64,000 bases of DNA from NCBI GenBank assembly GCA_965178125.1, contig OZ237759.1:682001-746000 (forward strand), read 5' to 3'. Source of the DNA: Bilabrum cf. latius. Taxonomy: Eukaryota. How positions within the stretch are numbered: position 1 is the stretch's first letter; each line of letters opens with the position of its first letter. The notes beneath the pieces are model-generated. The model saw nothing but the letters and a program-made list of their open reading frames with translations, had not been told where the DNA came from and did not search any database. Shown in pieces: positions 7,718 through 59,600 of this stretch. The translations under genes were made by a program, and so were the position numbers.

Positions 7718-8087
7718 TATTAGCAAATAGTAGTATCGGTGTGATCAATTGCATCAATTGGATTGATGGTATCCCCAGGATCTAGTTGCGCTAGGTTGCG
7801 CGGCGCCAATGCCAGTTCCGCCGGCGCTGACGATCTCGGCAAATGGATTCGTTTCGTGGCAGGCAGCATACCACACAAACAAGGTGCCGAAACGCGATAA
7901 GCTGGATCCCTGCGCATATAAATACATTATATTTGTAACCACACGGGTTATTAGCTCAACAAGACAGTTAGTGGCGGGGTTGTAGCTCGCTCCTTTTGTG
8001 ATGACGCTCGCCATCACGATAGAGTGACTTGCGCACAATCTGCACATTTGGGCTCCCAGCCGTAGCTGACGGATGCTTTAAGCAGAA

Positions 8088-14000: not shown

Positions 14001-17000
14001 CCTGTCATGTTTCTGCTGTAGTACTTGCTCGTGCAGTATAGATCCAGCAGTTTCGTGCTGGTTGAGCTGCGGGCCCTGTCAGGCACATCCAGGGAGATAC
14101 AGGCTTTGCATGCCAAGGCATACCGGCGAATGCGACGGGCCGCCGCCCTTCTCATGCCGATGGCTGCCCTCCTTCGAGTCACTGGTTGGAAGGGTCGGCT
14201 GGACCGGCTTGCCGTCGGTGCGGGGATCCGTCGCGCAAGCCACCAGCTCCTACGAGGCAGCACCAAGGACACCAATGAGCTGAGAGACGCCATCGGCATA
14301 GCCAGGGAGCTGGGTGGCCATGACTCGGGCGCCTCCTCCTCGGGATCGAGATTCGATTCCGAGTCCAGATCAGGGCCACCTCGAGCGATGATGCGGATGG
14401 CCTCAGCCAGCGACTCCACCGCGGGGCATTACGCGGACCTCTCTAGCTTCCGTCTGAACGACCCGGTAGTCCTAGGCAGGTTGGTTGTCGTGTCGATTCA
14501 CCTAAGTGGTCTGAGCAGGGTATCCTCCCTTGTTGGTCCCCTCGCCTCTTTGGCCATCCAGAGGCGGATCGGCGCGGCGGCTGACGCAGTGTGCCAGCGG
14601 TACCGATGCCTGCGGCTGACTTCCTCCAGCAACGGCCTTCAGCTGGGATGGGTTGTGGCTGATTTTGTGGAGGGGATCGGCATGCATGGGCTTGGAGGTC
14701 CACGTGGCGATCATGATGACGCGGACCACGACTCGTCTCTCGGCTTTCGTCCAAACGCATCCTCATAGCGCGATGTAGAAGTGAATTTTGATCGACGCAA
14801 TCCTGTCTCTAGTGCGACTGTCGCAGTCCAGGCTGGGCACCATCGCTCTCGGCATGCTGTGCGGGCACTGGATCCCGAGCACGACATTGCCGCCGCGCTT
14901 GCCCTAAAGCACGCTATTGCAGGTGCTGCTGATCTGCTGTCTCGAGCCAACGGCCTCATGGTGCGCCTGCAGACGGGCATCCTTCCCAGGGTGGGACTCG
15001 CAATGGGGCCCCTCAGTGTGACGATCGTAGGAGAAAAGCCAATGACACTGCAGTATGCTGACAGTGCCTTGGAACGGGAAGACAGGCCGCTTGCGACAAG
15101 CAATGCGCTGGCGCAGCACCGTAATTTGGTGGATTCGGTAGATATAGTTGCCAGCTCACCGTTGCATCCCGTTGCTATTCTTCCAGGCAACGGTATCATA
15201 CGCATGTCCCGCAACTGCCACGAGTTTCTGCAAAGTAGGTCCTCGTCCTCGTCAGATCAACCGGACGTTGATCCGCGCTAGTACGGTGGTACCGGGTCAA
15301 ATGAAGCAAGGAGCGGTGCCCATTTACCGAGTTCGTACAGCAGCGATGCTGTGCTGCCTGCCGTGCCAGAGCATGCTCCACCGAGATCCCAGTTGTACCA
15401 CATTGTGGGAGTGTACAGCGCGTCGTCTAGGATGGAGCAGCACCTGCCGTCCAGCAGCGATTCCGTGGATAAAAAAATGATATCCCGGGCGGAGAGCAGG
15501 TTCAGCAGCACAAACAGCATGGGATCTACGCCGCAGCTGCTGACCGGCAACACTGGAGGCGGCATATCAGACGGGGCTGCGCCACGTGCTATTCCAAGTA
15601 GAAAACGGGTGATGGTAGCGACAGGCTCGCACCAATCTCGAGGGTCCAGCAGAGGAAGGGGTGCGGCGGCACCACGCAGTGGCGGCAGTCCCTAGTCACG
15701 TGGATCTAGGCGGCAGCAGCGTTTCTTGGCGCAGGAGTTTCAGTCCGGCGGTGCCTCCACAGGCCAGATGACCAGCATTGGGTCGGCTCGTGTGATGTCG
15801 TCGATGGGAACCGGTGCAATTGAGGCGGCTACTGGAGCTCATATAACTCGCGCATCCTCGCGGCAGCTTGTGCCAAATAGCGCGCAACGGTATCAGACCG
15901 GCCCGGACATCGGCACCATGCAGTTGCTGAGACCTCCACCGGCCCGGTGCTCCTCTATGGCGCAGTATAAGCTGCTCCGGGTCCTTGGCTCAGGCGGATT
16001 TGCAAGGGTTTATGTGGCTGAGTCGCTATTAAATGGCAAAACCGTCGCCGTAAAGGTCACTACAAAGCGAAAAGGGGACGTCTCGAGGAGGAAAAAGCAG
16101 GACACGAGTGGCGGAGGTGTGGCAAATGACCTGGGGATCGATGACTTGGTGGATGGCGCCGCGCAATTGGGTTCCGGAACCGACGTGCCCACCGGCGTTG
16201 GGACTCTCCACACGAGCGTGTGCCGCGATGAAATCATCGCACTGCAGCGCTGCAAGCTTGCCGGCGTCCCGGGCGTATGCGATCTTCATGGGGTTACTGT
16301 GGATCGCAGCAGCGTGGGACTGATCATGGAGCACATCCCTGGTGTGTCGCTGCGTGACGTGGCTCGTACTAATGACAAGCGGCACAGGATGTCAGAGGAG
16401 TCCGTGAGGGTGGTCGCGAGGCAGCTCGTCAGCACCCTGACGAAGATGCACGCCGCAGGGGTGCTGCACAGGGATATCAAACCGACGAACTGCATGGTGC
16501 AAAGCAGAACTGGCGCTGCGCGATTGATTGATTTCGGGCTTGCCACGGACGCAGGCAAAGACCCGAGTGTGCAACATGGTCGTGGTAAGCTTGATAGCGA
16601 CACGACGGCTCGAAATAAACGAACTGGTGGTGACACGCAGCCTCCAGCGACTGCTTCTGCAGAGTTGGCTGCTTCTGCTGCTGCCGGTGAACCTGATGAA
16701 GTTGCGGCCGGCAGATCTAGGAAGGGTCGCAGCGGGCCGGCCACAGCCAAGGCGAAACAGGCCTCTAACGCCAGAACCTTCAGTGGACAGTCCAATGGTG
16801 CCGGGGCTGGTGCTGGCGCCTGCAAGAGTTAGCAGCAACAACAGCAGCAGCTCTAGCAGCAGCGCGATATCTCGCGTGGTAAGCCTGATACAAATCAGGA
16901 AGACAGTGCAGTCGTGTGGCGCAGAGAGGTGCTCGATACCCATGACGAATTGCTTCTCACGCTGCCTGCCCTAGTACCGAGGGTTTCAAGAGCGTGGGGC

Positions 17001-20000
17001 CACGAACAGCGCGCGCCCGGGGCAGAGACTCGCTCCAAGGAACGACGCATCCAACAAAATGCAGCCGCCAGTCGTGGCGGTGCGGATGCAATGACAGCAG
17101 TAGGCGTGCCTACACCAATGATGAGCGTGGTTGGATCCCGCAAGCATTCAAGTGGTAGCAAAGGGCACTCGGGTTTCATGGCCGCAAACAGCTGGGAGGA
17201 GGTGAATGCCGGGCCCATACAAGCTTCAGCTGACGCGTCTCACAGGGATATGCCAGTCGCAGGCCAACGTGAGCGGTCAGACAATGCCAGTGGAGCAGCC
17301 AGTGGGGCGGCAAGCATGGGCGCGTCGGCTACTTCTTCCTGCGCATCGGCCGGCCAGTCCAGCAAGGTGATGATTGCGTAGGACAAGAGTGGCTCTGTGG
17401 ACCACTCGAGACAGTCGTAGCTGTCGCCCACTGAAAGCGACAGTCAGCGGTCCGCTTGGGCCATGGAGCTGCGCGCTGCGGTCAATCGCGCCGCGACCGC
17501 TGCGGCTGGGGCAGACGACGGCAGCTCCTATTCAGATCGAGCTCGCTTTAGCAGCATTGACGCACCACTGGCCGATGCATCGCGGTTTGGAGATGCGACC
17601 GGTGCAGATGTGGCCGTAGACGAGCCAGAGCTGCAAGTGCATCGTATTGCGGTGCTTATCGTGGCTTGCGAGTCCGAGCGTGCTGCGGGCAGGCGACCTC
17701 AGAAAGCTGCCGGCTTTGGTGCGGCAAAAAAGGTCGTGAAGCCCATGGAAGAGTTGAAACCTGCTGTGCAAAACGCGAAGAACGCCCAGCTGGGCGGCCG
17801 GATCACGCCACTACAGCAGATTTGCAGGGAGACTGCCAGCGGTGCTGCTGATACTCAGATTTAGCCGGGCGGCGTGTAGATGACTGGTACAGCTGCATCG
17901 GGAAAGCAGGCACAGGAGCATGGTAGCAAACCAAGCACAGCAAAAGAGTCAAGAGAGGTACCAAGTGGCATCGACAAGAGCAGCACTGCCGCGAAAGGCT
18001 AGAACGCACCAAGTGCACCAGTTGGGCGTCGAATTTTACCAGCAATCGTCGAGCAGTCGCGAGACAGCGACGTAGCGACCAATGCGACAGAGCCAACTGA
18101 TATTCGTGGCGGCCAGGTGCCTGCAGCAATCAACGCTGCGAAGCCTAAAGATCCAACGCCCGCCGAAGAAAACCAGGCTGTCGAATCCGGCCCGTCGGAC
18201 GTCGACTTTGCCCACCTTCTCGCAAAAGGGCTCCGCGAGGCATCAGCAGGTCAGATCTAGCCGACTATCGTACGGAAAGTCAAAACCTTGAAGCAGCTCA
18301 TGCACAGAGACCCTCTTCTGTTCGACGCCGTGCTTTGCGCTGGGACATTCTTCGAGGATGAGAAAGAGAAGCTGTCATTGGCTTGGGAGCAGGCGTCATC
18401 GGAAGAAGGCAGCAGTCCAGATGACCAAGGAGCCGGAAGTGCTGCGAAACAGCACGAGACCGCGTCGCTGCGCACGGTCAAGGGAGCCGACGGGGCCGCA
18501 GCCGGAGCCAGCAGCCAGACCCAGCAACCCGTGTCAGTTGGGAGCATGGAACAGCCCGCTGATGCATCTGGTCGCCCCTCCGGTGCCGCCAGCATCAGCA
18601 AGAGCACCCGTCACACCTATGCCATCCAGGGCGAGGATAGCAAGATCGAGTCTGAGTCAGAAGAGGCAAATGAGGGCGATTCGTCTGCCGCTGCTGGCGC
18701 CTCGTCTGGTGCTGGCTACAGCACTCACGGGAATAGTACGGACCAGTACCCGAAGAATTCCATCGAATCATCTGTGGTGCGTCTGTCACGCAGGCCAGCA
18801 AAGCAGCTGGCGCGGCGAGCAGCTGCCGTCGAGAGCCGGTATGTCCTGCGATCCACCCGTGGATTCGGAACTACGGGTGCGGCCGGTCAGATGCACCGGC
18901 AGCGGTCTTTCTCCATCAGCACGTCGATCAGCCAGGGGACCTTTGCCAATTCGGAGTCGCAATTCACTCAGCCCCTCAGCCGCGCCGTCAGGGTGTACGC
19001 GCTGCAACCAGGCCCCAGCTCCAGCTCCAGCCACATGATCTCAAGCGCAAGGAGCAAGTCGAGCTCGATCCGAAATATTGGGGCGCACGACGCGCCGCCT
19101 GCTGACCTGCCGCCGCACAGGCTCGCAGCAATCGCTGGTTCACGGGCCGCGCAACCTGTTCCCTGGGACCTGCTTGTTCCGGTTGTGTTCTCGTCCTCCC
19201 GCGTGCGGGGAATGCTGTAGAGGCATGGAAGTGGTGACTTGACCTCAGCCTCACCCTTGACACGAATGGGCAGCAAATCTGACGGACTCCTGTCTACGAA
19301 ACGCGGCTCTGGTCGCTCATCGCCGCTCTTGGGCGGTCGTTACAAAGGCGGAGCTGCTCTCGAGAGTGGCGGCGAAGATGTGGCTGGGGTAATTTCTGCG
19401 AGTCTGGGCTCCGCTCGCGCCGGAGCTGCTGAGACAGACAAAGCACAAGAGACAGACGCGAATTCCAGAGTCAAATCGCCCGAGTCGGACTGGTACGCTC
19501 GTCACACTGAGGGGATCCGCAGGCTTGCTGCACGCTTGCTCGAAGAAGGCTCGGCGAGAGCTGAGCTCTACCAGGAGCAGGCTGCCATCGCGAGCGGATG
19601 CAAGGCACCAAAGCTCGATCTGCGCGAGATCCCACGGCGCGGTAGCACGGTCAAGAGAGCATCTCGCCGGGCCATGCAGCAGCAAGGGGCAAGGCAGCGA
19701 GCTCGCTCGGCAGCAGTGCGCCCAACGGGCAAGCCGTGGATGCGGATCGAATCGTCATCGAGCGCTGCCTCCAAGGCGACTGCAGGCGCCGTGTCTCTCT
19801 CGTTGGAAACCGCTGGACACGGCGAAGAACACGCGAATGCAGGTGGCATGACCATGGGTGAGGCAAGGAATCACCGGTCCTATGCCAGTGGGGAGGCCGG
19901 TGGCAGTGGCAGCAGGCCGGAGGTCGGCTCCAGGGAGCACCACGATGCGCGCGCCCAGCGAAACCAGGGGTCCCGCTTGCGCAATACGGGGACTAGACTC

Positions 20001-22775
20001 CAGAGCATGCACGCTCGCCCTACAGGCGGAGTGCAGGTGCTTCCGGGTCTAAGTGAGCACTCTATTCATTCCGTGCAGAGGGGAAGATGCCTGAGTGAGG
20101 ACAAAGGCGTCGATGATTCGGTCGTTGCCCTGGCTGCCGCGGAGGGCGACGAGGAGGAGGCTGAAGCTTCAAACCGACAGATCCCAGCCGTATATTACGC
20201 GCCAAGGAATGGAATGCAAGCACGCTCCAGCACGGGGTCGAGCCAGCAGCGTGCTGCCGCTGCATTGCATGGTGGTGGCCACGGCTCGCTGGCGCCACAA
20301 GGCAGTGGGCTGGGCCGGTAGGAGTCGCAGTCCTCGGTGCAATCTCGCTCGTCACACCAGTCTCGCAACCAGGTGGTGCCAGCGGATGCCGCGCACTAGC
20401 CCATGATGGCTGGCCGGCTCGCTCGGCGCGCATAGACGGTCGCTGGAACGAGGGTTAGAGCCGAACGAGCTGGTGATCAGACGGACCCCGATCAATAGCC
20501 CGGGAGGGAAGACTCTCGAACTCGAATGAAGGAGAGGAAGTTGGAAGGCCTGCTTAAGCGCGGCGCAGATCCAGCCGTTGACGTGCCGTCCAAGCAGTAT
20601 GGGTTGGGCCTGGATTTGGGGATGCGGCCAGGCATTGAAGGGTCTACTACCCGGGGCAGTATGCTTGACGGGGCTACTCTGCAGCCGGGCCAGGCGCCCG
20701 GAAGCTTCTATGGGTCAACCGACTCTATGTTCGGGTTTGGGGGCGTTGTTGATAGAAATCATGGGGTCGGTATCGGGGCGCGCGCGCCCGAAGAGCCTCC
20801 TCTTGCTATGGTGTACCGCGAGAACCAGCCGTTCGTTGCAGGCGTCGTGGGAACTCCCATGTTCATGGCCCCAGAGCTATTCGAGCACCAGGGGCAGAGG
20901 GCCAGCGACTACTGGTCGTTGGGAGTGACGCTGTTCTGGCTGCTGGCTGGCAACCTGCCGTTCCTAGGGGCGAGCAGGGAGATTACGAAGAAGTCAGCCA
21001 GGCAAGGCCACGTGAGCTGGCGGCTGCTCCCGTCTGACCTAAGCCCTGAGTGCATCGACTTCCTCCGGGGACTGCTGGAGCCGCGTGCCAAGCACAGGTA
21101 TGATGCCGCCGTGCTTGCGGTGCATCCGTGGCTCATGCCTCAATCTCAGGCGGTCAAAGAACGACTCCGGACTAGAATGGGCTCGTCTAGATCTAGCAAG
21201 CTCGACCTATTGCCTACAGAGAGGCGGGGCCTGCTGGGAACCTAGGCCGGTACATCAGCCGATGCTGCGGGCGCTCAGCACAGCTCCCATTGGGCCCAAT
21301 AGAAGAGTCTTGCGGATGACGGCCACCCTGACGAGCTTCCATCCATCGATGCAATCATCGAGAGATGGGAGATCGATGATCCCTACGAGGACCCGGCAGG
21401 CCGCGGTGACCTCACCGGAACGGGTTGGGCCCATGGGCCAGAGAACACAAGTTCTACCACTGAGCAACACGTGGGCCTAATTAAGGAAGCGTCTGGGGCA
21501 AGCCGCACTGGTACAGCTGCGCCTGGAGGGGCAGCACCAGCAGTTCCTGTAGCTGGATCTGACGGCTCCGACTCGCTCGGTGTTGTTGCTAGGCGGCGGC
21601 AGCACACCGCTAGCATGCTGCGGCCCGCGCGCGTAGCACGAGTTTCCCCACTGGCTAAACCTGGCAGGCACAGGATCCCGTGGGACACGCCGGCCTCAAA
21701 CGCGCCTGGCCACCAGTGGATTGGTGGGCAGGCACCCCAGGCTCTGCCCCTGCCCAAGCGCCGCGGCAGTAGCAGAGATAGGGGCAGGGACAGATATACC
21801 GCCGAAGACCGAGCTTCTCGCACCAGGCAGTTGCAATCGCGTGCGGAGGCGCAGGCTATCGTGCACGTGTATGGGGCAAGGATCTAGTGCTTTCCGTCTG
21901 CGGTCGTATTGCGGTCCACCGGCGGGCAGGCCGCCATTGCCAAGAAATTCAGCGCGTATGCCGCTCACAAGGCGGCATTGCGAGACCTGCGAGAGATAGG
22001 CATGCCCATGAGCACCGCTGAGATCGTGCTGCTGCGAAAGAACAGGGAGGTGGCAAAAGCGGCGCAGGCCGCAGCGGCGGGTCACGAAGCGTCATCGATG
22101 TCGAGCGATCAGGGCGGGCTGATCGGGATCCACAGCATCCATCGGGACTCTTCCACGGGCCCTGACGCAGCAGATGGTGGGATAGATCGTGCCAGCGCCG
22201 CACAGCCCGCGCGTACCGGGAGAAGAGACCAGGCATCGCTCCGGCGGGCCATCCCAAGCCACAGCACGCCGTCAGAGCCGTCTGGCGGCTCACATGGGCC
22301 TGCTAGAAAGAACAAGGGTGCATCGGGGAACAGGAGCAGCAGCAGCAGGAGCTCAAGCTCCTCGAGCCACCGGCACCGGGCTCGCGCACCTGGAATCAAC
22401 GCGAGGAACAGACCCGGAATCGATATTCCCACGCGGGGGCGCGGCGAGGTGCCTCCTGTCCAAGCATCGACACAGCCGGCCACGGAAACGGAAACGGAAG
22501 CGGGTGCGTTTGCCGGCTAGCAACCTGGCGTGGCCAGATAGATTGAGAGTGCAGCTGCGCCAGGTGACGACGATGGCGGGTTACGGGCTGCGAGTGAGTC
22601 CAGCGGTTCCACCCTGCGCGTCCCAGCTCCCTTTGGGCTGGGCGGCGGAGGGCCCCAAGGTGGGGACAATGATTCCCCGGGGAACTGGGGGTCGGGGAGG
22701 GCAGATGACGACAACATGGACAGCTCCGACGGAATGGTCGATTCTCGCAATGCAGGCACGCCCATTCCGCGGTGA
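8088..22775 (+). CDS. Giant (~4,900 aa) multi-pass membrane protein with degenerate nucleotide-cyclase-like region(s) and a C-terminal Ser/Thr kinase domain split by a long insert
   Basis: More than 20 track ORFs from 8643 to 22520 lie in one frame. I translated the gaps and found only TAG (about 40), never TAA or TGA, until TGA 22773-22775; an in-frame TAA at 8079 precedes the ATG. Kinase motifs: LGSGGFARVY, VAVK, HRDIKPTN, DFG (16530), GTPMFMAPE (20850), DYWSLGV, HPWL. Possible frame-preserving introns near 8184/8208-8255 and 8464-8556. Confidence 0.85.
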
Positions 22776-36268: not shown

Positions 36269-36368
36269 GCCTTTCTTTGGCTGCACTTCAGCCTAGTAGG
36301 TAGAGGATGGCTTGCTCCGGATCCAGTGCAAGATGCCGAAGAGCATGCGCGCCTCATAGCTTTGTGCC

Positions 36369-37856
36369 ATGATGTCAATCTTGCCCGTGTGTATTTGGGG
36401 CGTGTTTTTGCATTCAGCCTCTGCAAAGATGCTGCAAGGGACTGTGCGAGGCTGGAACAGCTGGGACGCGGTAGGTCTCAACGGCAACGAGTCCTTTGTG
36501 TACCAGGCCGCCGACTATCTGACCGAGTCTGGCCTCCAGTCCAAAGGATATACTTGGATCACTAACGATGCTGGATGGTACGGCGCCGGGGCTCCCATTG
36601 ATCCGCTGTCCGTATCTATCGACGAGTATGGTCGCCTTCGTCCTAGCAAGGAGCGCTTTCCTTCTCTAGGCGGCAGCTTCGCACCGCTATCTAGCAACCT
36701 TAAAAAGAAAGGCTTCAAGTTTGGGCACTGGCTCATTCGAGGCATTCCTGTGCGTGCCGTGGTGGATCGCACGCCGATCAAAGGCACCAACTACACCGCT
36801 GCAGACGTTGCGCGGTTCGACCGCAACTGCACGTGGTCCGGCCTGAACGTCGGCGTAAACGCTTCTCATCCCGCTGCATAGGCGTGGTACGATTCCGTGG
36901 TGGAGCTAGCCGCGGAGAGCGGCGTGGCGCTGCTCAAGTGGGACTGTCTCTTCGCCAAGGACCTCGTCGCAGACGAGCTGCAGCTCATCGCGCGCGCCGT
37001 CCGCCGCTCCGAAGCGAGCATAGTCCTGTCTCTGAGTCCGGGGCAGGAAGAAGTCCCTTCTCTCGGGAAGTGGGTCAACGACAACGAGCTGGCCACTTTC
37101 TACCGCGTGGATGGAGACTTCTGGGACGTGGGTCCGGGGATCAATCCCGGGTGGGGCCAGCTCTGGACGCACGTGCACACCGCCTGGGCCAACGCGAACG
37201 CGGGAGTGAGGAACAACGACCTCGACATGCTCCCGATCGGGGCCATTGGCTGCGGCAGCGCCGTGCCGCCGTGCCGTCAGTCCCGTTTCCCCCTCGAGCA
37301 GCAACGCACGATCATGGCCCTGTGGGGCATCACAGGCAGCCCCCTCATCTGGGGAGGGGTACCCGAGGCGGTTGCAACCTCAAACGAGACACTCGAGCTG
37401 CTGGGGAACGAGGAGCTGCTTAGGATGCACGAGGCCTCCGCTGGCGGCGAGGGGGGTCTCCTGGCCCTCGCCTTTCCGGAGCAAGTGCTCTAGGCTGGTG
37501 AGCAGGCGAGCCCTGTGATCGTCGGCAACGGGCACTACTCGCTAAAGGCAGTCAACGTTACGGTGACCGGATCGGATGGTGTGACGAGTGGCGATGAGGG
37601 CCGTCAGGACACGGCCGCGTTCGTGCTGTTCGCCAGATCCTCCCAGCCGGCGTGGGTGCTGGTGAGCAGCGGCCGCGCTGGTGCTGTCGAGTATGAAGCC
37701 AGCTGGTCGCAGCTTGGCATTGAGGTTGCAACCGGTGCGTGCGCTAAGGTGTCGAGCATCTGGAGCGGGCATGCATCCAAGCGGCAATGCAGTAAGCTGA
37801 GCGGGACCGTGGCGCCCTACGCGAGCGCAGCTCTGCGGCTGGACTTGAAGGCATGA
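36369..37856 (+). CDS. Secreted glycoside hydrolase family 27 (alpha-galactosidase-like), ~495 aa
   Basis: Signal peptide; RGWNSWD, ITNDAGWY, DEYGRLRPSKERFPS, KFGHWLIRGIP, HPAA(TAG)AWYDS, LLKWDC, SIVLSLSPG, YRVDGDFWD, NDLDMLPIG, SPLIWGG. TAG at 36879 and 37491; TGA at 37854-37856. Confidence 0.93.
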
Positions 37857-45555: not shown

Positions 45556-46905
45556 ATGGCGGATAGCGCCTCTGCTGAATGCGGTGCATGCGTTATAGTA
45601 TCAACTGCCTGCCTTTTCGGGTGGTATTTCGTCTCAGCAGTACTTCTGCTGCCGTATAGCCTTGATGGTGTTGATATTGCAGACAGTCTCGATTTGTCCT
45701 GTGTTGTGGGAGGCATATACTCGCTATAGAACGAATAGAACAATGATTTGTATCCTGCACGATTGAGAACGCGAGATGACGCAGGGCTTCTATACGCATA
45801 GCAGCTTGTCGGGCCGTTTGCGGCGGATGGCGCAGCACAGGAGTATATCCAATCGCAGAGCACCACCCTTGGGAACTGGACCTTACAAGTGTCCAATAAT
45901 TAGCTGCAGATCGGCGATCTATTCCGGCAGGTCCCGGTGTGGGAGTACCCTATCGGAATGTAGAACGGACGTCGCATCGCAGTGTCTGGGCCGCTCCCAG
46001 ACGGTGCAATGGGACAAGGCCCCAACGCCAGCACAGTGCATCTAGAACAGATAGGAACAGACTTTTGTGACACGGAGGCTGCTAGAGGTAACGTCTGGTA
46101 CGAAGTGCGAGACTGGTTTCCGCAAGCGGCTCTGCACCTGGCCGCTGCGGGGTGCAGCTTGACAATCCCAGTGATTCTGGCTTTGATTGCGATATTTTCT
46201 TGCAACCAGTGCTTTACTGTCTCCGACAAGATTATGGGTACGTTGCTGTTGCTTTGCTTCGTTCTGATCGCCGGCCCATTCGCGGCTTCTCTTGCACTCG
46301 GGGCTCCGGCATTCGCCGACTTCACCAGGGGCGGGCGCGAGTCCACGGACTGGCAGATGCACGTCCTGAAGGAGAGCCCGCAGACCGGACTCGAGTACTC
46401 GCTGGCCAATAACTGCGCCTGGTCGTTCATCGTGTTCAGCGCAGTTTTCGGAATCATTTACTGCGTCGGGTGTCCCTTCGCCCTGCCGTACGTGGTTCTC
46501 TCCAGCGTGGAGATTATTCGAGAGAGGAGGAGAGCGAGGAGAATCAGGGCGCCGGCTGAGAATGGAGCCGATGGGATGGAACGGTAGCAAGGCGGCGAGC
46601 AGCAGGGGCAGCAGCGTGTAGGGGAGTTGCCGCCAGCAGCTGTGGCGCAAGGCCACTCGAATGGCGGTGGCAATGCGACGGGTGCTGCTGCTGGGAATCG
46701 CGCCATTGATTCGGGAGCTAGTGCTGTCCACACAGCCCCAGCACGACCAGGCTTGGAGGCCATGAGAGTGTTCGTTGCTTCGCGTAACACTGGGGATGCG
46801 CAGCGTGACCGTGAAGGCGGTGTGGATGGTTTGGTCGGGGCGCAGGGGGTGGCTTCTGCGGTAGCACCGGGGGCCGGCGCGGAGCACAAAGCAGTCCCTA
46901 TCTAA
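45556..46905 (+). CDS. Multi-pass membrane protein of unknown function, paralog A (~449 aa)
   Basis: Frame is open apart from 6 TAGs and ends at TAA 46903-46905. Shares ARLRTR.D.GLLYA, STTL.NWT, PVW.YP and CDT..ARGNVW.EVR.WFP with 52099-53184. Confidence 0.82.
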
Positions 46906-46994
46906 ATCCACTCACAGAAGCAAACGCTTTTGTGGAAGAGGAAGGGAAGGCGAATCGAGCGTGTCGATGCCAGCAGGATAGAGCAAGGGTTGCA

Positions 46995-47387
46995 GTGGCA
47001 ACTTGGCCATTTCGAATCCTGAATGAGCGTGTCGACCGATGTCAGCAGGGAGGAGTGGGTGGACTGCCGTGGTGACTTGACCATTTCGAATCCTGAATCG
47101 AGCGTGTCGACCGATGTCAGCAGGGAGGAGTGGGTGGACTGCCGTGGTGACTTGACCATTTCGAATCCTGAATCGAGCGTGTCGACCGATGTCAGCAGGG
47201 AGGAGTGGGTGGGCTGCCGTGGTGACTTGACCATTTCGAATCCTGAATCGAGCGTGTCGACCGATGTCAGCAGGGAGGAGTGGGTGGACTGCCGTGGTGA
47301 CTTGACCATTTCGAATCCTGAATCGAGCGTGTCGACCGATGTCAGCAGGGAGGAGTGGGTGGGCTGCCGTGGCAACTTGGCCATTTC
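46995..47387. repeat. 75-bp minisatellite, ~5 near-identical copies, with a degenerate copy from ~46952
   Basis: Unit CCATTTCGAATCCTGAATCGAGCGTGTCGACCGATGTCAGCAGGGAGGAGTGGGTGG[A/G]CTGCCGTGGTGACTTGA, head to tail with no spacers. Confidence 0.93.
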
Positions 47388-48105
47388 AACCCCATTGTGG
47401 ATGCTGGGACCCAACCACCTGGCTGTGCCACTGCCGCGAGAGTCATCGCCCCCATCCGTACCAGTCGCTGTGGCGTGGCTATCCCCTAAGACTGCTACTG
47501 AATACGGGGTGCGGGGCAGGACAAGATCAGTGGTGGGGTGCAGGGCAGGGCTGAACAAGTCGAATTGCGCTGCTGTAAACGGCAGGCCCATGGAGCTGGC
47601 CAAGCGGCTGAGGCTGGGGCACCTGGCGGGTGGGCTGGAGCGGCAGGTTCGATCATCGGGTGCCAGCCTGAGTGGGCAGCTGGTGAGTCCGCTGGGAGCA
47701 GCTCTGCACGCAGCAGGGACGGAGATGGAGAAGCTTGAAAAGGAGCTTTTCCAGGCAGGGACGCCTCGGTTTGCGCGTCACAAGGAAGGCTCCACACAAG
47801 TTCGCTACAGACGCTGAACTGCGCACGTTCATGGCCACTGGCAGCACCGCCCTGTCCTGGGCGGGGTCGAACTGCCCGAGGCACAGTTAGCACCTGGTCC
47901 CGATCCGTACGGGGGCGAGTAGTACTAGTAAGCCGATGCGATCGAAAAATCTGAGTGACATCTTGCAAATGGCATTTCTTGTCAATTTTCCCGGTGCGAC
48001 GGATGCAGTGCAGCCTGAGACTCTCGGATACATTCGTTCTCTCTTTCAACGTGTAGCCGCCGCTTCTTTTTTTGTGCAACAAGAAATATCAAGCTGAAGA
48101 GATAC

Positions 48106-48141
48106 GCGGCACTTGTTTTTGGTGCGGCACTTGTTTTTGGT
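48106..48141 (+). repeat. Perfect 18-bp direct repeat (GCGGCACTTGTTTTTGGT)x2 just upstream of ATG 48148
   Basis: Seen directly; ends 6 bp before the start codon. Confidence 0.8.
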
Positions 48142-48147
48142 TTATCG

Positions 48148-51100
48148 ATGTCATCATGGTGCCCACCTGGATACTTCCGTGACAGCCATGGACGGCTGTG
48201 CAAGCTGCCTCCTCCTGGCGATGCTGCTGCAGCGAAACACGCAGCTGAGCGAACTGTAGCACAATCAGCGACTGATCGAGGACCAAAATCTAAAAAGAAA
48301 CAGCCAAAATACTCTCGAAGGGGTAGCTTGTCCCCTTACACTCGAAAGGGTGCCTCGAAGCGTGTCTCGAGAAAGCGGGCCAAGACCTCGTCGCCGATCG
48401 TCGGTGGCTTCAAGGACTACACCAGATTCATGTGGCCCCACCAACTCCGAAAACTTGGCATGTCTTGCGGGATGGCAGTGCCCCGATCGGGTACGAGGCA
48501 CCTGCCTCTGCACGGTGCCGTTTGCCTGGCGGCACACAAGCGCGTGTGGCTTACAAGCGACAACAGACGTGGCGTGCAGGGAACCGCCGGCCAGAGCCGT
48601 CGATCAATAGCCACGTATCATGAACGATGTATGGATACGATGATCGAATCGGCGTGGCTAGACAGTGGCATTCGTCAGTGCGACTCCCTTGAGTCCGTGG
48701 GTGGCCGCAACTCCGGCACTGATGATGCCTCCGGCCAGCGAATCTCAACTCAAGAGAACCCCACGAGAATTGCAGAAGGATCCATCTGTACCGCCGTGGC
48801 GCTCTGGCTTCCGCCAAGGTCGGATCGCAGCAGCAGCAGCAGCAGCAGCAGCGGCGGCCTGCAGCAGCAGCCACATCGGGCGCTGGATCTCCCATAGTCC
48901 CATCGAGGCACGAGTTCGGAAGCCCGAGCCGGCCCACACGCAGTCACGCGCGCTTACAGGCGCCGCAGAGCCCAAGCCGATTCCCTGAGGCGGAGCAGAG
49001 CTCCCATCAGGGCGCGCATTGCGCGCTGTACCCGTCTGCAGGGGCCATCAGGTGCCTATAGCACAACCACATGGCAGTTCACAGGCGCTGAAGTCCTCGA
49101 TAGGAACTTCTTAATGAACAGTGTGGATGGTAGGACTGGATATCGGTCTTAGTAGCATGTATCCGAAGCCATTCCGCAGCCAGCGTCCGGACCCGGACGG
49201 CAGCGAGCAGTGCGTGGCGTCGGACTGTTCCTAGCACCGCCGTCCTCCTTGCGCAGATCTTCCTCCTCAAGGCACGGCAGGCGGATCTGGCCCGAGTCCA
49301 GCTCTTGGCCGAGGGCAGTTGCTTGCCAGGCCAGCTGGGTGACAGAGATGGGTTTCAGCGATTTCAGCTACCCAAATGAACGTGTGATGCAGATGCCGTT
49401 GGCTGGAGTGTGTAGATCTAGTGACGGTGCCGTGGACGCAGCAATTTCGGGTGCCAGTGCTGGTCAGAGTCGTGCTGCAGCCTTTGTAGCTAGAATTAGC
49501 AGCGTCGTTGGCGCAAACACGGACAGGCAGACCGGCCAGCTGTCCGGATCAATGATCGGCCAATGGATCTGTCTGCGCAACGCGGTGGCGACGTTCCAGG
49601 TCAGCGAACAAATTTGTTCACGTGAATTAGTGCTTGAATTGCTGTCCAGGCCCATCGTGTCGAACACCGCTGGAAGTGTCGCGTCCCCACTCACTGCGCA
49701 GAACCTAGATTTAGCCTCCTCCCAGGCGGGCAGGCAGCGCGAGAGAGAAACGAGTCAAGGCCACGGAACTGGCCCAAGCTCCGGCTCCGGCCCCGGCCCC
49801 AGCTCCAGCTCCATACACGGCTAGGCCGCGAGCACTGCACCTGGCGACGCGCAGCAAGCAGCGAGCAGCGGGGCACAGAGTGAAACAGGGGGAATCGAGG
49901 ACGATGCGAGCAGCGAGGCACAGAGTGAAACAGGGGGAATTGAGGTCGATGCAAGCAGCGAGGCACAGAGTGAAACAGGGGGAATCGAGGACGATGCGAG
50001 CAGCGAGGCACAGAGTGAAACAGGGGGAATCGAGGTCGATGCAAGCAGCGAGGCACAGAGTGAAACAGGGGGAATTGAGGTCGATGCAAGCAGCGAGGCA
50101 CAGAGTGAAACAGGGGGAATCGAGGACGATGCGAGCAGCGAGGCACAGAGTGAAACAGGGGGAATCGAGGACGATGCGAGCAGCGCCCGTGACGCGGACT
50201 ACTCTTCCGACGAGGAAAGCCCGCTATAGAATGGCTGGTGGCAGCCGTTGGCCAGCCCCATGGGAGTGATGCCGCCGATCTGCTGGACACGCCAGGCGCC
50301 GAAATACCAGCTCGAGCCAGCTGTTGCTGAGGAGCCCGCGATGTTCAAGAAATGCACGGTGCAAACTGTCTGGCCGCTATCCCCATTCGCGATGTTGTAT
50401 TGCACGGTAGAAGGCGCGTTCGTGCACTCGATGTGGCAAGGGAATCCAACCACGACAACAGTTGCGATCGAGCGAGAGCGCGTGAGCGTCGGCGACGACG
50501 AGCTGCGGTGCGCGGCGCCGCTGGTTCCGCTGGAGGACTACCGCAGCGTCGCTTGCGTGTAGGAGAGCGACATCCTGCTCTGGCGCCAGGAGCGCTTCCA
50601 CGAGGCACTCCGGACCCCCGATGTTGCGGTAGGTCTCAGGACGGGTCGGGTGATGATCCTGCCCGGAGCAGACAGTGGGACTTACAACACAATGTCTGTG
50701 AGTAGTTCCCAACCAAAGCCTGGACCGGCTGGCAAGTCAAAGTCGGGCGCAGCGCAAGCAGGCGCCGCCAGTGGGGCTCCCAGGACAGGGGAGGGCGAGG
50801 GAAAGACGAGCGAGAGCGAGAGTGCTCTGGATGTCAAGTCTGCAGTGCCATCAATAGTGTGGCAGAGCGATGCGCCGATCGCGATGGTACAGTCCGTCGC
50901 GTGTTCCATCCATCCAGCCTGCCACACGAGCGACCAAAGTGCTGTGCAGGCCGAATACCGCGGCAGGCATCGTGCCGTGCTCGTGGTCGCCGATCGCGGC
51001 AAGCGGGCTGGGCTGCTTCCCATCCGCCAGTGCAAGCGCGGGCAGTGGATGCGGGACGACGGCACTGCAGCCTCCCAACTGTCCGTTCAGTTTTAGGGCT

Positions 51101-51882
51101 ACTCCCATCGCACCCGGCCTGACTATGCCGTGGCCGCTGTTCTCAAAGGGAGCAGGTTCTTCTTGGGGCCGTACGAGCACGGGCTGGCAGTCCGTCAGAT
51201 ACTTGCAGAGGCAGATGAGAAGGAGAAGGAGTGTGTGCGGGCCGAGCACGGTGACCGTGACGGGGCCAGGGACGGAAAGGGGCAGCGCGGAGTGCGGAAA
51301 GGCAAGAGAAAGAGATCGAAGTCGAGCAGGGAGCGAGGTGCCGGTAGGGCGCCAGCTGCTGCTGGGCGTGCTGCCGCTGGCCACCACGCCCTGCAGCAGG
51401 GGCTCACAGCCGTGGCGCAAGAGGAAAGAAAGAAGCAGCCGGGCGTGGATGAGGCCCTTCCCGGACTGCTGGGCATCTGGCCACTGCGCGTGCTCGGCGG
51501 CAGATGTGAGGGTGGTGATGTAGGCAGACCCACGACCTGGGTCCCTCCCGTATGCGTGGTGACTCCTTTCCTGCAGGCAGTGCCGCGGTCCTTACACGCG
51601 GGTGCGCTGCATGCAGCTGCAGGGCATCCCTATGCTGACGCAATGCCCCGAGGTCGAGGTGGCCGCAACAGCCGGCGTGAAGTGCCGAGGCGGCGGGTGG
51701 TGACGAGCTTGGATTAGGTCGATTTGGCTCATCAGGTAGCGAAACACGTGCCGTTACATGCCGAGAGCATCAAAGAGGCGTTCGTGGGGATCGATGACCG
51801 CCGCTTGTTGCCTGAAGAGGAGGTGTCTGAAGAGCAGGTGACCGGGGCCTGCCTGCTGCCTGCACCGTCTGGCGTTGACTGA
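48148..51882 (+). CDS. Hypothetical protein (~1,244 aa), basic N-terminus and acidic internal repeat
   Basis: ORFs 48148-48897, 49210-49824, 50248-50562, 50650-51096 and 51130-51717 share a frame. The gaps contain only TAG, including a tandem TAG TAG near 49150. TGA at 51880-51882. Confidence 0.72.
49861..50184 (+). repeat. 45-bp tandem repeat x7, coding for (ASSEAQSETGGIE[DV]D)7
   Basis: Unit GC[GA]AGCAGCGAGGCACAGAGTGAAACAGGGGGAAT[CT]GAGG[AT]CGAT, read in the frame of the host CDS. Confidence 0.93.
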
Positions 51883-52098
51883 AATCTGGACACTCGGGTA
51901 ACTCCAGCGCTATCTGACCTACAGCGCGTTTGGAATTCGAGAAGTCATACAATGGGATTGATTTGTGACATGTTTGGGATAGCATCTATGTTTCTCTGCC
52001 AGTGCCGGCGATGACGGGTGGTTCCGGTTCCAGGCTTCCGGTCGCCCTCTCTCAGGCAAGTCACGTGTTCAATTTGTTGATAGCAAAGGTGCAAGGCA

Positions 52099-53184
52099 AT
52101 GGACAAAAAAGATGTTCCTGCATGTGTCACAGCAAGCGCAGGCATGTGTGTTTTCGTAGTCTATTTGGGCTTGTGCGCTGCCCTGCTACCCGCGAGCTCA
52201 ACGGGAGAGCAGCTTTCAGCAACCTTGGAACCCTCTTGCGTGGTAGGATTGAGGCACAAAGTTTCGAACCAAGACGGCAGTCTACAGTTGTCAGCACGCC
52301 TGCGCACCCGGGAGGATGGCGGGCTCCTGTATGCGGAATGGATCGCTGGTGATGGCGTCTCCGCTGCACGCGATCTTATCGATTCATAGAGCACGACCTT
52401 ACGCAATTGGACAAGGCTAGTTTCAAATGACCAACTAGATGTTGATGACTCCATTGCGTTCTTTCCAGTGTGGATGTACCCAGTGGATATGAAAGGAGGT
52501 GCAGCCGCAGGTCAAGGAAGCATTGCGGTCGCAGCTACTCTGCCGAACGAGGCGTACAGCATTCGTACGGGTGCTAGATTTGCAAACCAAGGCGCAGAGT
52601 ACTGCGATACTGCGGAAGCTCGAGGCAATGTCTGGTTTGAGGTGCGAGAATGGTTCCCGCTCGCTGGCGCGCGTCTAGGAAGGGCTGGGCTTGTCGTCAC
52701 CACAAGCGTAATTATTTCGACCATTCTCATCATTTCCGCGGGGCTATCATTCGACAAAGAAACCAGACTGCGGCTGCTCGTGACCGCCGGGCCCATTTGG
52801 TGGGTGGCAATGCTGGCTTTCGTGCTGGCCTTTCTTGTCCTCGGCGGTCTCGGTGCTTACGGACTTCGGGATGTCCTAAGCGACTACGAATCTGGACTGG
52901 CTGTTATGATTCGCGAGGCGCCTCAGTCACGAGGTGCTTTCATCCTCACGATGCTGTGCCTCGCCGGGTACATTTGCTTCGCGATCATCGTCACCGTGGG
53001 GCACCTGTTTATCGGCGCGCTTCTCGCCTCCGAGGTGTCGGACAGGATGAAGGAGTCCAAGGCTGCAGGTGAACAGAGGAGGCAAGCAGGAGGGGGGAAT
53101 GGGGGCCATGAAGGGGACGCTGACACTGCTCAGCTGAGGGGCGCCCAGGGTGTGACGACCTGGAATCCCACGCAGAGACTGTGA
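52099..53184 (+). CDS. Multi-pass membrane protein of unknown function, paralog B (~361 aa)
   Basis: ORFs 52099-52389 and 52468-53184 join across TAG 52387. Collinear similarity with 45556-46905. TGA stop. Confidence 0.85.
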
Positions 53185-56696: not shown

Positions 56697-59600
56697 TCAC
56701 GGCAGCACCTGAAGGGCGATATCCTGCTCCACCTCGAACGCCACGTCGCCCATCCCTAGCGTGGTGTTGAAGCCGCTGGGGAAGGGTGGCTGCGGCCCGT
56801 CAAGGTAAATGGGCGCCCCCCTCTGCCACGGGAGGATCTGCAGAAGAACATTCGTCGGCGAACCTTCACGAAGCGCTCCCATGTGGGCAAACCGGTTGAA
56901 TCCGATCGTCAGGGGTATCCCAGGGGCGTACTGCTGGTCGTACATGAACACGCCATTCATCGGCGCCCCGCTGCCAGGGCCGCTCCCGAAACCCAAGTAT
57001 TCCGGATCAAGAGAAGAAGGGTTCGTGTAGTAGGCGCGCACCACGTCGCCCCACCAGGGCAGCACCATGCGCACGTCTGTGCGGCAGCTACCCCCAGCGG
57101 GTCTCGATCCCGGGTCTGGGCCGTAGGAGCATGGGGTGCTGCCCGCTGGGGCCGCGTGCGGGTAGAAATCGATCTCGAACTCGGCTGAGACGTTGAAATC
57201 CGCATCACGAGGTTCCGCAGCGGCGCCTTTCGGGCCGATGGGGATGTGACGAGCGGGTCCTGCCCGACGGACAAGCCCGCTGTTCACGGTCACGTTGCGG
57301 ATGGCGGGTGCGGGAGATGACCCAATGAACGCAGTGAATGCGCCACGCTTCTCCTGCTCCATGTTCCCTGTGCCGGGCGGACAGCCGGCACCCTTAGGGT
57401 AATGACTGCCCTGCAATACACCCGGATTCGATGCACCGCCATGGGATGCACCAGGCGCGTCGGGCATGCACAGCCCAGTGGGGGCCGGCAGCATCAGGAT
57501 CTCTACGTCTGGCGCAGCGCCTCCTGCCTCGCCCGATGATGGCGACCCGGCGGATGGAAAACCGGAAGTGGCGTTGACCTGGATCCTGACCTGGTCACTG
57601 TCTCCCGCGGTCGCAATCACCGCACCTCGTGTGACGATTGCGGTGTCCACGCCGGCCACCCTCTCCCTGTAGGTGGCCAAACCCGTGGGCTCGTCCAGCA
57701 CGACAATGGCCACTTCGGCTCCGTCCGATGCGGCTTTGACCACGATGGCCTCCTCCAGCCCCGGGAGGAGGCCAGGGAACACGTAGTTCCCGCCCCGCCT
57801 CACAGGGGTCACGGTGGAAGACACCACGGAGCTGATGCCGTCCTGCTCCAGGCCGACCTCGATACCGAGCCCGCTGCCATCGCCGCCGTTCATATTCGCG
57901 CTCCCGTTGCTGTAGATCCCTTCGATAGCGGTCAGGAACACGGTCACCTTGTTCCCTGGGGAACACACAGCGAAGAGGGGCTGGGCCGTGGCGTGGCTCA
58001 CCACCACCCCCGCACCCAGTGGGCTACCTCCCGGGGAACAACTGGCCGTGGCACCAGCGCTGATCGAGTCCGTGTGTGTAGTTGCATCTCTCGCATGTCG
58101 GTCGCCCATCGTGGCCGATGGCGCCCTGCGCTTGGGCTGCTCCCACGCCGTGCGAATCGGGCTTGGATCGCTCTGCAGGTCGGCCACGTCCCAGCCCATT
58201 ATAAACTGGCCGTACGCCCCGGGAGCGATTGAGAGGGGCGCCGAGCCGTTGGGCGGGAACATGCGGGTCTCGTTCCCGGGAAGGTGGATCGTAAGCCGCA
58301 CGCCGTCGTGATGGGCGAAGGACTGTCCCCGCCCGTAGCTGTTGATACCAAGCAGCACCGGCTGCTGGCTGGCGGCGCCGCGCACGTAGGTTCCGCTAGC
58401 AGGGGCGGGGTTGGCACGCACCGCCCAGCGCAGCGTGGTGGTATCAGTTGTACCCGTCGGGCGGATCGTCGGCAGGTAGGTGGTCAAAGAGGCCAGCGCG
58501 GGCCCTGCCGAGTGCAGCAGCAGGTGCAGCCTCCTCATAGAGTGGTAGTGTTCCCTCACCTGATGGAAGGATCCCAGAGGGGCCTAGTAATCGTAGTCCA
58601 GCACGGGCATGTCGTTCGAGCCACCCGAGTACTGGGCCTCTTGCATGTAAGACAGCTTAGCGATCGGATTAACGCTGCCCTGGTAGATGTAGTATCCCCC
58701 CGAGGCAGTTCCGCTGAGCGACTAAACGGTTGCAACCGGCCCGATATCGGATGGGGGAACAACAACCCGTCTATGGTAGGCGGTGCTCATGCCGTCGCCC
58801 ACCTCTATCTCCAGCTGGGGGTAGGTGCCGTTTGGGTGGAACCCCGTGGTGGAGGGAAGGTACCCCCCTGATGGGGGGTCGGGTTGTGTGTTCCTCGGCC
58901 AGAATTGGGACACGTACACCCCCACGTTGGGGACGAGTTCCCCGTATGGGACACCCTGCATGGTGGGCCACTCCGTCTTTAGGAAGTAAGGGGCGTCAAT
59001 GCCCGCTTGTTGCAGGGCGATCTTCTTGAGGGCCAGGAGGTACTGAGGGTCGCAGCAGTACTCATTATCCACCTGCGAGGGAGGAAAGTGGAGGCAGGTA
59101 CGATGGAGAAGGAATGAAACATTGAGACGCACAGGATTCAATGCAATCGGTCAGGTTTGCATAGGTCACACTCGGTTGCCTCACCTGGAACGAGAACACG
59201 CCCCCACCGTCCTTCCACAGGTGACCCTGAATCTGCTCCCCCTCTTGCTGGTACAGAAGTGTGGCGAGTGCGAGGAACTTGGGGTCTGTGGACCTGAGCT
59301 TGACCTTGCCCTCGCTGGCCAGCGCCTGCAGCCAGTCGGGGAACCCGCCCCCCCTGGCCTCTCCGTGGGACCACGGGCCCCCGCGCATGAGAACTCCGAG
59401 TCCTAGCTCATCTGTTCGGTTCAAAAAACCGTCCAGGGACCGTCGCCCGTCCCAGCGCCACTTGTTCTGCTCCTCTTCGGAATGCAGCCAGAACTGGTAT
59501 GTCTGGATCGAGTCCAGGCCGCCGGCGCGCATGCGCAGCAAAGCTGTGCGCCATTCGTTGGCCGGAAGCCTCGCAAAATGGAGGGATCCATGGACTGGGA

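What the first reader, a model, noticed from the sequence alone, without database searches (positions are those of the whole stretch)
45856..52434. Internal reciprocal evidence for TAG=Gln from two paralogs
Seen: paralog A TCG CAG AGC ACC ACC (S-Q-S-T-T, CAG at 45856) aligns with paralog B TCA TAG AGC ACG ACC (TAG at 52387). Exactly 45 nt later in both genes, paralog A AAT AAT TAG CTG (TAG at 45901) aligns with paralog B AAT GAC CAA CTA (CAA at 52432). TAG swaps with CAG or CAA in both directions, as a synonymous codon would. No external database is needed for this.
Basis: seen in the sequence. Interest (0 to 1): 0.88.

Follow-up and report, generated by a model that had tools for sequence, protein, structure and literature searches.

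The report
TAG read as glutamine, eukaryotic genome
This DNA comes from a GC-rich eukaryote that reads the stop codon TAG as an amino acid, most likely glutamine, while TGA and probably TAA still end genes; this is a rare but already described kind of genetic code.

Summary
CAG 45856 faces TAG 52387, and TAG 45901 faces CAA 52432, in two real paralogs (BLASTP E 3e-46). These are only 2 of the 6 aligned TAGs; the other four face S, D, E and K. The pair alone is suggestive (chance about 0.005-0.01).

Wider evidence supports the reading:
- Only freeing TAG opens giant ORFs (4,897, 3,000 and 2,153 aa).
- In 15,972 in-frame codons there are 106 TAG, 0 TAA and 0 TGA.
- A TAG in the GH27 glycosidase gene (36879) sits in a column that is Gln in 19 of 19 homologs and in the 3 solved-structure alignments printed. 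A 61%-identical environmental ortholog has TAG at the same place.
- B's TAG column is Gln in 7 of 9 family members.
- Five database fragments of relatives break off just before a Gln or TAG column.
- Two TAGs lie inside a CAG/CAA poly-Gln run.

TAA looks like a stop, not Gln: 0 seen against about 31 expected. The code is therefore UAG-only to Gln, not table 6. A GT..AG intron, absent from contigs in two runs, marks a eukaryote.

The tRNA, eRF1 and lineage could not be examined. This is a new member of a known kind. Confidence 0.85.

The parts
45556..46905 (+). Paralog A: 449-codon ORF from ATG to TAA, with six in-frame TAGs (45727, 45736, 45799, 45901, 45961, 46585). It is a membrane protein with no Pfam family.
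52099..53184 (+). Paralog B: 361-codon ORF from ATG to TGA, with one in-frame TAG (52387). Four hydrophobic segments.
45856..45858 (+). CAG (Gln) of A, facing the TAG of B.
52387..52389 (+). TAG of B, in the S-Q-S-T-T block. The column is Gln in 7 of 9 other family members. Two database fragments (P0124, P0135) end just before it.
45901..45903 (+). TAG of A, facing CAA of B. The column is variable in the family (2 Gln of 9).
52432..52434 (+). CAA (Gln) of B, facing the TAG of A.
36333..37856 (+). GH27 glycosidase gene, used as an outside yardstick. Three in-frame TAGs.
36879..36881 (+). TAG in P-A-A-[TAG]-A-W-Y-D. The column is Gln in 19 of 19 homologs and in the 3 solved-structure alignments printed. 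The environmental ortholog (L001/L002) also has TAG here.
16830..16856 (+). TAG CAG CAA CAA CAG CAG CAG CTC TAG: two TAGs embedded in a poly-Gln run of the 4,897-codon ORF.
8082..22775 (+). 4,897-codon ORF with a protein kinase domain. It has 44 in-frame TAGs, no TAA, and ends in TGA. It is open only if TAG is read through.
59070..59181 (-). 112-nt GTGAG..CAG intron of the GH35 gene. It is absent from contigs of two runs and kept in a contig of run X2 (kind not on record). This marks a eukaryote.
46903..46905 (+). TAA, the likely stop of paralog A. It is the only TAA-terminated ORF among the 13 examined.

Best explanation
The window is nuclear DNA of a GC-rich (about 60%), intron-poor eukaryote. 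Its cytoplasmic translation reads UAG as a sense codon, most likely glutamine. UGA ends nearly every gene, and UAA is not used as a sense codon and probably still terminates. The two paralogs are intact genes for a lineage-restricted four-segment membrane protein. Their TAG/CAG and TAG/CAA swaps are synonymous changes between Gln codons.

Inferred, not shown: decoding is by a tRNA-Gln with anticodon CUA, which pairs with UAG but not UAA, together with an eRF1 that no longer recognises UAG. This is the mechanism described for other UAG-only lineages.
For: TAG is sense:
- Longest stop-free frames are 1,022 aa with the standard stops. They are 4,897, 3,000, 2,153 and 1,361 aa with TAA+TGA as stops. 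Freeing TAA or TGA instead leaves the maximum at 1,022.
- In 15,972 in-frame codons of nine long ORFs there are 106 TAG, 0 TAA and 0 TGA. The two off-frames have TAG 112/113, TAA 44/49 and TGA 260/292.

TAG is Gln:
- TAG 36879 lies in a column that is Gln in 19 of 19 GH27 homologs and in 3 of 3 printed alignments to solved structures.
- The 61%-identical ortholog on L001/L002 has TAG in the same column.
- B's TAG column is Q7 E1 R1 in the family.
- Five fragments from relatives (P0124, P0135, P0129, P0126, P0125) end just before a column where A or B has Gln or TAG.
- Two TAGs sit inside a CAG/CAA run.
- BLOSUM62 tally over 10 sites: Q 5.23, E 3.24, K 2.23, S 0.48, L -8.4 bits.

TAA is not sense:
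- 0 TAA seen against about 31 expected from the CAA share of 0.226, P about 4e-14.
- 12 of 13 ORFs end in TGA.

The genes are not decayed:
- The B ortholog fragments are 86 of 96 and 198 of 226 identical and break at the same column.
- A's tail keeps a stop-free frame and a first-codon-position GC of 0.80.

Eukaryote, and TAG unedited:
- A 112-nt GT..AG intron is missing from contigs of X6 and X7, which belong to two studies, and is kept in the X2 contig.
- Contigs of X6 cover both paralogs with 0 differences.
Against: - Only two conserved columns carry the amino-acid call. The eight variable sites alone rank E 1.18, K 1.17, Q 0.61 bits.
- The close A ortholog P0126 (73 of 100 identical) has E, E and P opposite three of A's TAGs.
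- The relative's other reliably aligned TAGs face K, K and E in the window.
- The stop codons that end the database fragments were not seen as DNA, so that they are TAG is inferred.
- There is no tRNA gene in the window and no whole genome is held, so the tRNA and eRF1 steps are untested.
- The tool flags X6 as 'probably DNA', so the lack-of-editing and transcription evidence for the paralogs is weak.
- TAA as a working terminator rests on one ORF.
Confidence: 0.85

Rival explanations
1. Both TAG and TAA encode Gln, as in NCBI table 6 (ciliates, Dasycladales, hexamitids, reported for Amoeboaphelidium). TAA is simply too rare to appear in this GC-rich window.
For: TAA is rare in every frame (48-76 per frame). 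Only one ORF (A) would end in TAA, so its use as a terminator is barely documented. Most known stop-to-Gln lineages change both codons (PMC5304391 abstract).
Against: There are 0 in-frame TAA in 15,972 codons, against 44 and 49 in the off-frames and about 31 expected if TAA:TAG followed CAA:CAG at 0.226. Other A-ending codons make up 13-44% of their pairs. TAA occurs only within the first codons of TGA-delimited frames, upstream of the likely starts.
Confidence: 0.07
2. TAG is a sense codon but stands for Glu or Lys, or is decoded ambiguously, rather than Gln.
For: At variable sites TAG faces E four times and K three times in pairwise comparisons. The eight variable sites score E and K slightly above Q. 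UAG as Glu exists in some ciliates and in Blastocrithidia (abstracts of PMC10553269 and PMC12153298, seen in the listing).
Against: Both conserved columns are Gln: 19 of 19 and 7 of 9. No conserved Glu or Lys column holds a TAG. GAG, AAG, CAG and TCG are the single-base neighbours of TAG, so E, K, Q and S partners are what mutation would give at tolerant sites. TAGs sit within a poly-Gln run.
Confidence: 0.06
3. The paralogs, or the whole region, are decayed pseudogenes or misassembled DNA, and the in-frame TAGs are ordinary nonsense mutations.
For: A has six in-frame TAGs. One database fragment (P0127) implies a frame difference in A's tail in another assembly.
Against: No TGA, TAA or frameshift interrupts frames of up to 4,897 codons. 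The same TAG column is kept in a relative whose fragment P0124 is 86 of 96 identical, and in a 61%-identical GH27 ortholog. Four runs from three studies reproduce the sequence with no differences.
Confidence: 0.01
4. UAG is corrected to CAG in the mRNA by U-to-C editing, or is bypassed by occasional readthrough, under a standard code.
For: None was found. The possibility stays open because the kind (RNA or DNA) of the runs laid is not on record.
Against: Contigs from runs that hold the spliced form of the GH35 gene, and so carry cDNA-derived sequence, show no base differences anywhere in 44001-64000. At 106 TAGs per 15,972 codons, low-efficiency readthrough would abolish nearly every long protein.
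Confidence: 0.01

Closest known systems
UAG-only to Gln nuclear codes: Iotanema spirale (Fornicata), Protocruzia tuzeti, and the phyllopharyngean ciliates Hartmannula sinica and Trochilia petrani (PMC5304391 abstract and passages; PMC11687900 passages)
   Same: UAG is read as Gln while UAA is not reassigned. TAG is spread through most genes. A CUA-anticodon tRNA would explain why UAA is untouched (PMC11687900 passage).
   Different: Here the genome is GC-rich (about 0.60) and UGA, not UAA, is the terminator in 12 of 13 ORFs. In I. spirale UAA is the primary stop (PMC5304391 abstract). The 64-kb contig with multi-kb genes and a spliceosomal intron looks unlike what I recall of phyllopharyngean gene-sized chromosomes (recalled, not tested). 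The lineage of the window is unknown.
NCBI table 6 codes, UAA and UAG both read as Gln: many ciliates, Dasycladales, Cladophorales and Trentepohliales, hexamitid diplomonads, and reported for Amoeboaphelidium protococcarum (PMC2984419, PMC5304391, PMC6299283 passages)
   Same: A stop codon is read as Gln, and UGA is kept as a stop.
   Different: TAA is absent from 15,972 in-frame codons here, against about 31 expected.
Other UAG-only reassignments: to Leu in a rhizarian and in uncultured ciliates, and to Ser in Scotinosphaera (PMC5304391 abstract; PMC11687900 passages)
   Same: UAG is decoupled from UAA.
   Different: Leu scores -8.4 bits and Ser 0.48 bits, against 5.23 for Gln.
'Genetic code 15' in crAss-like phages (PMC9523058 abstract)
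   Same: TAG is read as Gln.
   Different: Those are phage genomes in bacterial hosts. This window has a GT..AG intron missing from contigs in two runs, and eukaryote-type genes such as ARL2-binding protein and eukaryote-type DDAH.

Membership tests
Nuclear code with UAG read as Gln and UAA/UGA as stops (table-15 type) | In-frame TAG in real coding genes at the density of a sense codon | tested here: met
   106 TAG in 15,972 in-frame codons, against 112 and 113 in the off-frames. One TAG lies inside a homology-supported GH27 domain.
Nuclear code with UAG read as Gln and UAA/UGA as stops (table-15 type) | TAG falls in columns where homologs conserve Gln | tested here: met
   19 of 19, 3 of 3 printed solved-structure alignments and 7 of 9. 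Only two conserved columns were available; the eight variable sites are uninformative.
Nuclear code with UAG read as Gln and UAA/UGA as stops (table-15 type) | TAA not used as a sense codon | tested here: met
   0 of 15,972 in-frame codons, against about 31 expected.
Nuclear code with UAG read as Gln and UAA/UGA as stops (table-15 type) | TAA works as a terminator | tested here: inconclusive
   Only paralog A would end in TAA, 1 of 13 ORFs.
Nuclear code with UAG read as Gln and UAA/UGA as stops (table-15 type) | A tRNA-Gln gene with anticodon CUA | not testable with these tools
   No tRNA gene in the window and no whole genome held.
Nuclear code with UAG read as Gln and UAA/UGA as stops (table-15 type) | eRF1 altered so that UAG is no longer recognised | not testable with these tools
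   eRF1 is not in the window and no genome is held.
NCBI table 6 (UAA and UAG both read as Gln) | In-frame TAA in coding genes | tested here: not met
   0 TAA in 15,972 codons. Freeing TAA lengthens none of the eight longest frames except the sixth, 465 to 528 aa.
UAG read as Leu, Ser or Glu | TAG falls in conserved Leu, Ser or Glu columns | tested here: not met
   L -8.4, S 0.48 and E 3.24 bits, against Q 5.23. One relative's TAG faces a column that is Ser in 16 of 20 sequences, but the nearest sequence (the window) has K there.
Pseudogene pair | Frameshifts, other stop codons, or no conservation in relatives | tested here: not met
   No TGA, TAA or frameshift in A or B. Ortholog fragments are 86 of 96 and 198 of 226 identical.
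Glycoside hydrolase family 27 (the yardstick gene at 36333-37856) | Significant match to GH27 profiles and to solved GH27 enzymes | tested here: met
   Pfam Melibiase_2, E 4.9e-09. Solved structure 4nx0, E 2.5e-50. 741 database homologs.

The most novel reading that the evidence does not exclude
The window belongs to a so far undescribed GC-rich, intron-poor eukaryotic lineage. At least one divergent environmental relative shares the trait (61% identity in GH27). This lineage would have reassigned UAG alone to Gln independently of ciliates and fornicates, with UGA as almost the only terminator. It would be the first such code in a GC-rich genome. GC pressure should favour TAG over TAA as a stop, so loss of the codon under compositional bias would be a poor explanation for the change.
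Probability: 0.35. Interest if true: 0.7.

Novelty: new member of a known kind. Interest (0 to 1): 0.55.

Why it matters
Nuclear codes in which UAG and UAA have different meanings are known from only a handful of lineages (PMC5304391, PMC11687900). Another case, in a GC-rich genome with UGA as the main stop, adds an independent data point on how the two codons are uncoupled.

There is also a practical consequence. Standard-code gene calling breaks this organism's genes apart. The public protein collections hold the paralog family almost only as fragments of 60-276 aa; 15 of the 16 hits are this short. Catalogues built from such samples therefore misrepresent this organism and its relatives.

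Tried and rejected
- No tRNA and no Rfam family in the window.
- Homology searches with the TAG-rich ORFs 60150-63344 and 2020-6102, shorter proteins, gave no hits. No tally came from their 17 and 9 TAGs.
- Solved-structure searches gave nothing usable for TAG columns. This covers the ARL2-binding protein and DDAH (TAGs lie outside the aligned parts), the second GH35 exon, the two WD40-like ORFs and 53919-56456.
With the A+B alignment it found no relative in the metagenome contigs.
- Of the eight loci, only L001 and L002 were used. L003-L008 are 31-36% identical to the query P0003 and were not read.
- The repeat-like 3' end of L001 (seven TAG columns in 'QGPxGxME' repeats) was dropped from the tally as unalignable.
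- Pfam found no family for A or B, and only a sub-threshold match (E 0.06-0.07) for the relatives P0131 and P0140.
- The AlphaFold model of the family member P0131 had mean pLDDT 55 and pTM 0.41. That is too low for a fold search, so none was run.
With the DDAH stretch it gave no useful lead on lineage.
- No listed holder of the stretch is on record as RNA.
- Lineage was not determined. Literature searches found no GC-rich eukaryote described with UAG-only to Gln. This does not show that none is in print: the library lacks most subscription journals, and supplements are closed.
- Pyrrolysine was considered and rejected, because TAG is used at general sense-codon density in a eukaryote.
Full report
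**1. The observation**

CAG at 45856 in paralog A faces TAG at 52387 in paralog B, inside the shared block S-Q-S-T-T-L. Forty-five nt on, TAG at 45901 in A faces CAA at 52432 in B.

The two ORFs are A (45556-46905, ending in TAA) and B (52099-53184, ending in TGA). They are real paralogs: BLASTP E 3e-46, 115 of 317 identical. They are the only such pair among 357 TGA-delimited ORFs of the window.

All six aligned TAGs face S, D, E, Q, Q and K.

- With TAG columns placed at random in the 312-column alignment, the reciprocal pattern has P = 0.005, and 2 or more of 6 facing Gln has P = 0.010.
- Ordinary Gln codons of A and B face Gln in only 1 of 13 and 1 of 8 columns.

So 2 of 6 is what a Gln codon would give here. 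On its own, though, it is two codons.

**2. TAG is a sense codon throughout the window**

- With the three standard stops the longest open frame is 1,022 aa.
- With TAA+TGA as stops the longest are 4,897, 3,000, 2,153, 1,361, 1,287 and 1,065 aa.
- Freeing TAA or TGA instead of TAG leaves the maximum at 1,022 aa.
- In 15,972 in-frame codons of nine long ORFs there are 106 TAG, 0 TAA and 0 TGA. The two other frames of the same DNA hold TAG 112/113, TAA 44/49 and TGA 260/292.

TAG is therefore not depleted in frame, while TAA and TGA are completely excluded. The ORFs carry real domains:

- a protein kinase;
- GH27 (Melibiase_2), GH35 and an ARL2-binding protein domain;
- a eukaryote-type dimethylarginine dimethylaminohydrolase (DDAH), E 7e-28 to human DDAH1.

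**3. Which amino acid**

In the GH27 gene (36333-37856), the codon at 36879-36881 is TAG, within CCC GCT GCA TAG GCG TGG TAC GAT.

- Its column is Gln in 19 of 19 aligned homologs, which are 30-54% identical and mostly bacterial.
- It is also Gln in the three alignments to solved structures that were printed, 4nx0, 4nxk and 3cc1.
- Two metagenome loci, L001 and L002, are identical over 1,064 overlapping bases and have GC 0.54. They encode an ortholog with 288 of 472 residues identical, and it has TAG in the same column. Its three other reliably aligned TAGs face AAG, AAA and GAG of the window.

An exhaustive profile search with A+B found 16 proteins among 1.84 billion representatives. Of these, 15 are 60-276 aa and one (P0131) is 456 aa.

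- In their alignment, B's TAG column is Q7 E1 R1.
- P0124 is the B ortholog (86 of 96 identical). It lies on a 2,027-base contig, as does P0123, which continues the gene. P0124 stops exactly before that column, and so does P0135.
- P0129 stops before the 'S-P-Q' column, which by my count from the alignment is Gln in 8 of 9.
- P0126 and P0125, the A ortholog fragments, each stop where A's next residue is a CAR Gln.
- In all, 5 of the 5 fragment ends that can be aligned with confidence precede a Gln or TAG column.
- Two further fragments (P0128, P0137) end inside the domain at non-Gln columns. Whether by a stop or by a contig end is unknown. The DNA of all these fragments could not be read.

Two TAGs lie inside a run TAG CAG CAA CAA CAG CAG CAG CTC TAG CAG CAG.

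A BLOSUM62 tally over ten alignable TAG sites, taking the mean per site, gives Q 5.23, E 3.24, K 2.23, S 0.48 and L -8.4 bits.

**4. Evidence against Gln**

- Without the two conserved columns, the eight variable sites rank E 1.18, K 1.17 and Q 0.61 bits.
- The close A ortholog P0126 (73 of 100 identical) has E, E and P opposite three of A's TAGs. In the same alignment, 5 of A's 8 CAR Gln codons face Gln.
- Counting pairwise, only 2 of 12 TAGs face a Gln codon.

I read this as TAG arising at tolerant sites from its single-base neighbours GAG, AAG, CAG and TCG. That is an inference. Glu or Lys keeps a small probability.

**5. TAA**

TAA is not a second Gln codon here. None occurs in 15,972 in-frame codons. 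About 31 are expected if TAA:TAG followed CAA:CAG, where the CAA share is 0.226; P is about 4e-14.

In TGA-delimited frames, TAA appears only near the 5' ends, upstream of the likely starts. Twelve of 13 ORFs end in TGA, and A ends in TAA.

A's 105-codon tail after its last TAG has no stop in frame, against 3 and 5 in the other frames. Its first-codon-position GC is 0.80, so translation seems to run through that TAG to the TAA.

**6. Not pseudogenes, not editing, and a eukaryote**

Contigs of four runs were laid on 44001-64000. They show no base differences or indels anywhere.

- Contigs of X6 and X7, from two studies, skip 59070-59181. This is a 112-nt GTGAG..CAG intron on the minus strand, and its removal joins ..SFQ to VDNEY.. 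of the GH35 gene.
- The contig of X2 (kind not on record) keeps the intron. X6 and X7 therefore hold cDNA-derived contigs.
- X6 contigs also cover 45542-46402 and 52072-52924 unchanged, which includes seven of the TAGs in question.
- The tool flags X6 as probably DNA, so this is weak evidence for transcription and against editing.

**7. What the paralogs are**

Each has an N-terminal hydrophobic segment and then a domain of about 170 aa. That domain carries conserved blocks: SCVVG, R-x-R-x-D-x-G-L-L-Y-A, S-Q-S-x-T-L-x-x-W, V-W-x-Y-P and C-D..N-V-W-x-E-x-R-x-W. Three more hydrophobic segments and a basic tail follow.

There is no Pfam match for A or B. The structure model was of low confidence, mean pLDDT 55. 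This looks like a rare, lineage-restricted membrane protein family. Its function is unknown and is not the point of the finding.

**8. Comparison with what is known**

- UAG-only to Gln with UAA kept as a stop is described for Iotanema spirale (PMC5304391, abstract and passages). It is also described for Protocruzia tuzeti, Hartmannula sinica and Trochilia petrani (PMC11687900, passages).
- UAG-only to Leu and to Ser also exist (same sources).
- The more common code changes both UAA and UAG to Gln (PMC2984419 and PMC5304391, passages).

The window fits the first type. It differs in being GC-rich and in using UGA as almost the only terminator; I. spirale mainly uses UAA.

A CUA-anticodon tRNA-Gln and an altered eRF1 are the mechanisms discussed in those papers. 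Neither could be examined here. My searches found no GC-rich eukaryote with this code. The lineage of the window is undetermined, so I cannot say that the organism is undescribed.

**9. Verdict**

One correction: the code is TAG-only, not TAA+TAG. One caution: the paralog pair alone would not have carried the claim. This is a new member of a known kind of variant code. Interest is moderate, and higher if the lineage proves new.

Noticed in passing
window 47001-47387, with loose ends at 47579-47618: A 75-base tandem repeat of 5.2 copies lies directly downstream of paralog A. Contigs of three runs break into several different sequences at 47579-47618. This suggests a multi-copy or variable element there.
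   Followed up: no
window 54777-55300: In runs X6, X7 and X9, single contigs leave the window sequence after 54777 and rejoin before 55300, each time with the same foreign letters. Other contigs of X6 and X2 run straight through. This could be a variant allele, a paralog or an alternative form inside ORF 53919-56456 (minus strand).
   Followed up: no
window 8082-22775: The protein kinase domain is split. The N-lobe and catalytic loop are at about residues 2717-2835, and the APE/C-lobe region is near residues 4270-4330. Roughly 1,400 low-complexity residues lie between them.
   Followed up: partly
window 36333-37856: Apart from two or three eukaryote-like relatives, the nearest homologs of the GH27 gene are bacterial. 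Some are named Terriglobales, at about 35% identity. The gene may have been acquired from bacteria.
   Followed up: no
window 46640-46700 and protein P0127: Database protein P0127 matches A's last 74 residues exactly, but it starts in another frame. This implies a one- or two-base length difference in A's tail in another assembly.
   Followed up: partly
window 49861-50185 and 817-1007: There are in-frame tandem repeats of 45 bases (7.2 copies) and 39 bases (4.9 copies). They encode repeated acidic or Ser-rich peptides inside long ORFs.
   Followed up: no
window 59062-60093 (minus strand): The first GH35 exon begins with a Cys-rich segment before the catalytic domain. It was not classified.
   Followed up: no
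L001 about 1750-1881: The 3' end of the relative's GH27 frame runs into a repeat that reads QGP-TAG-G-TAG-ME four times. This may be a contig-end artefact or a TAG-rich repeat.
   Followed up: no
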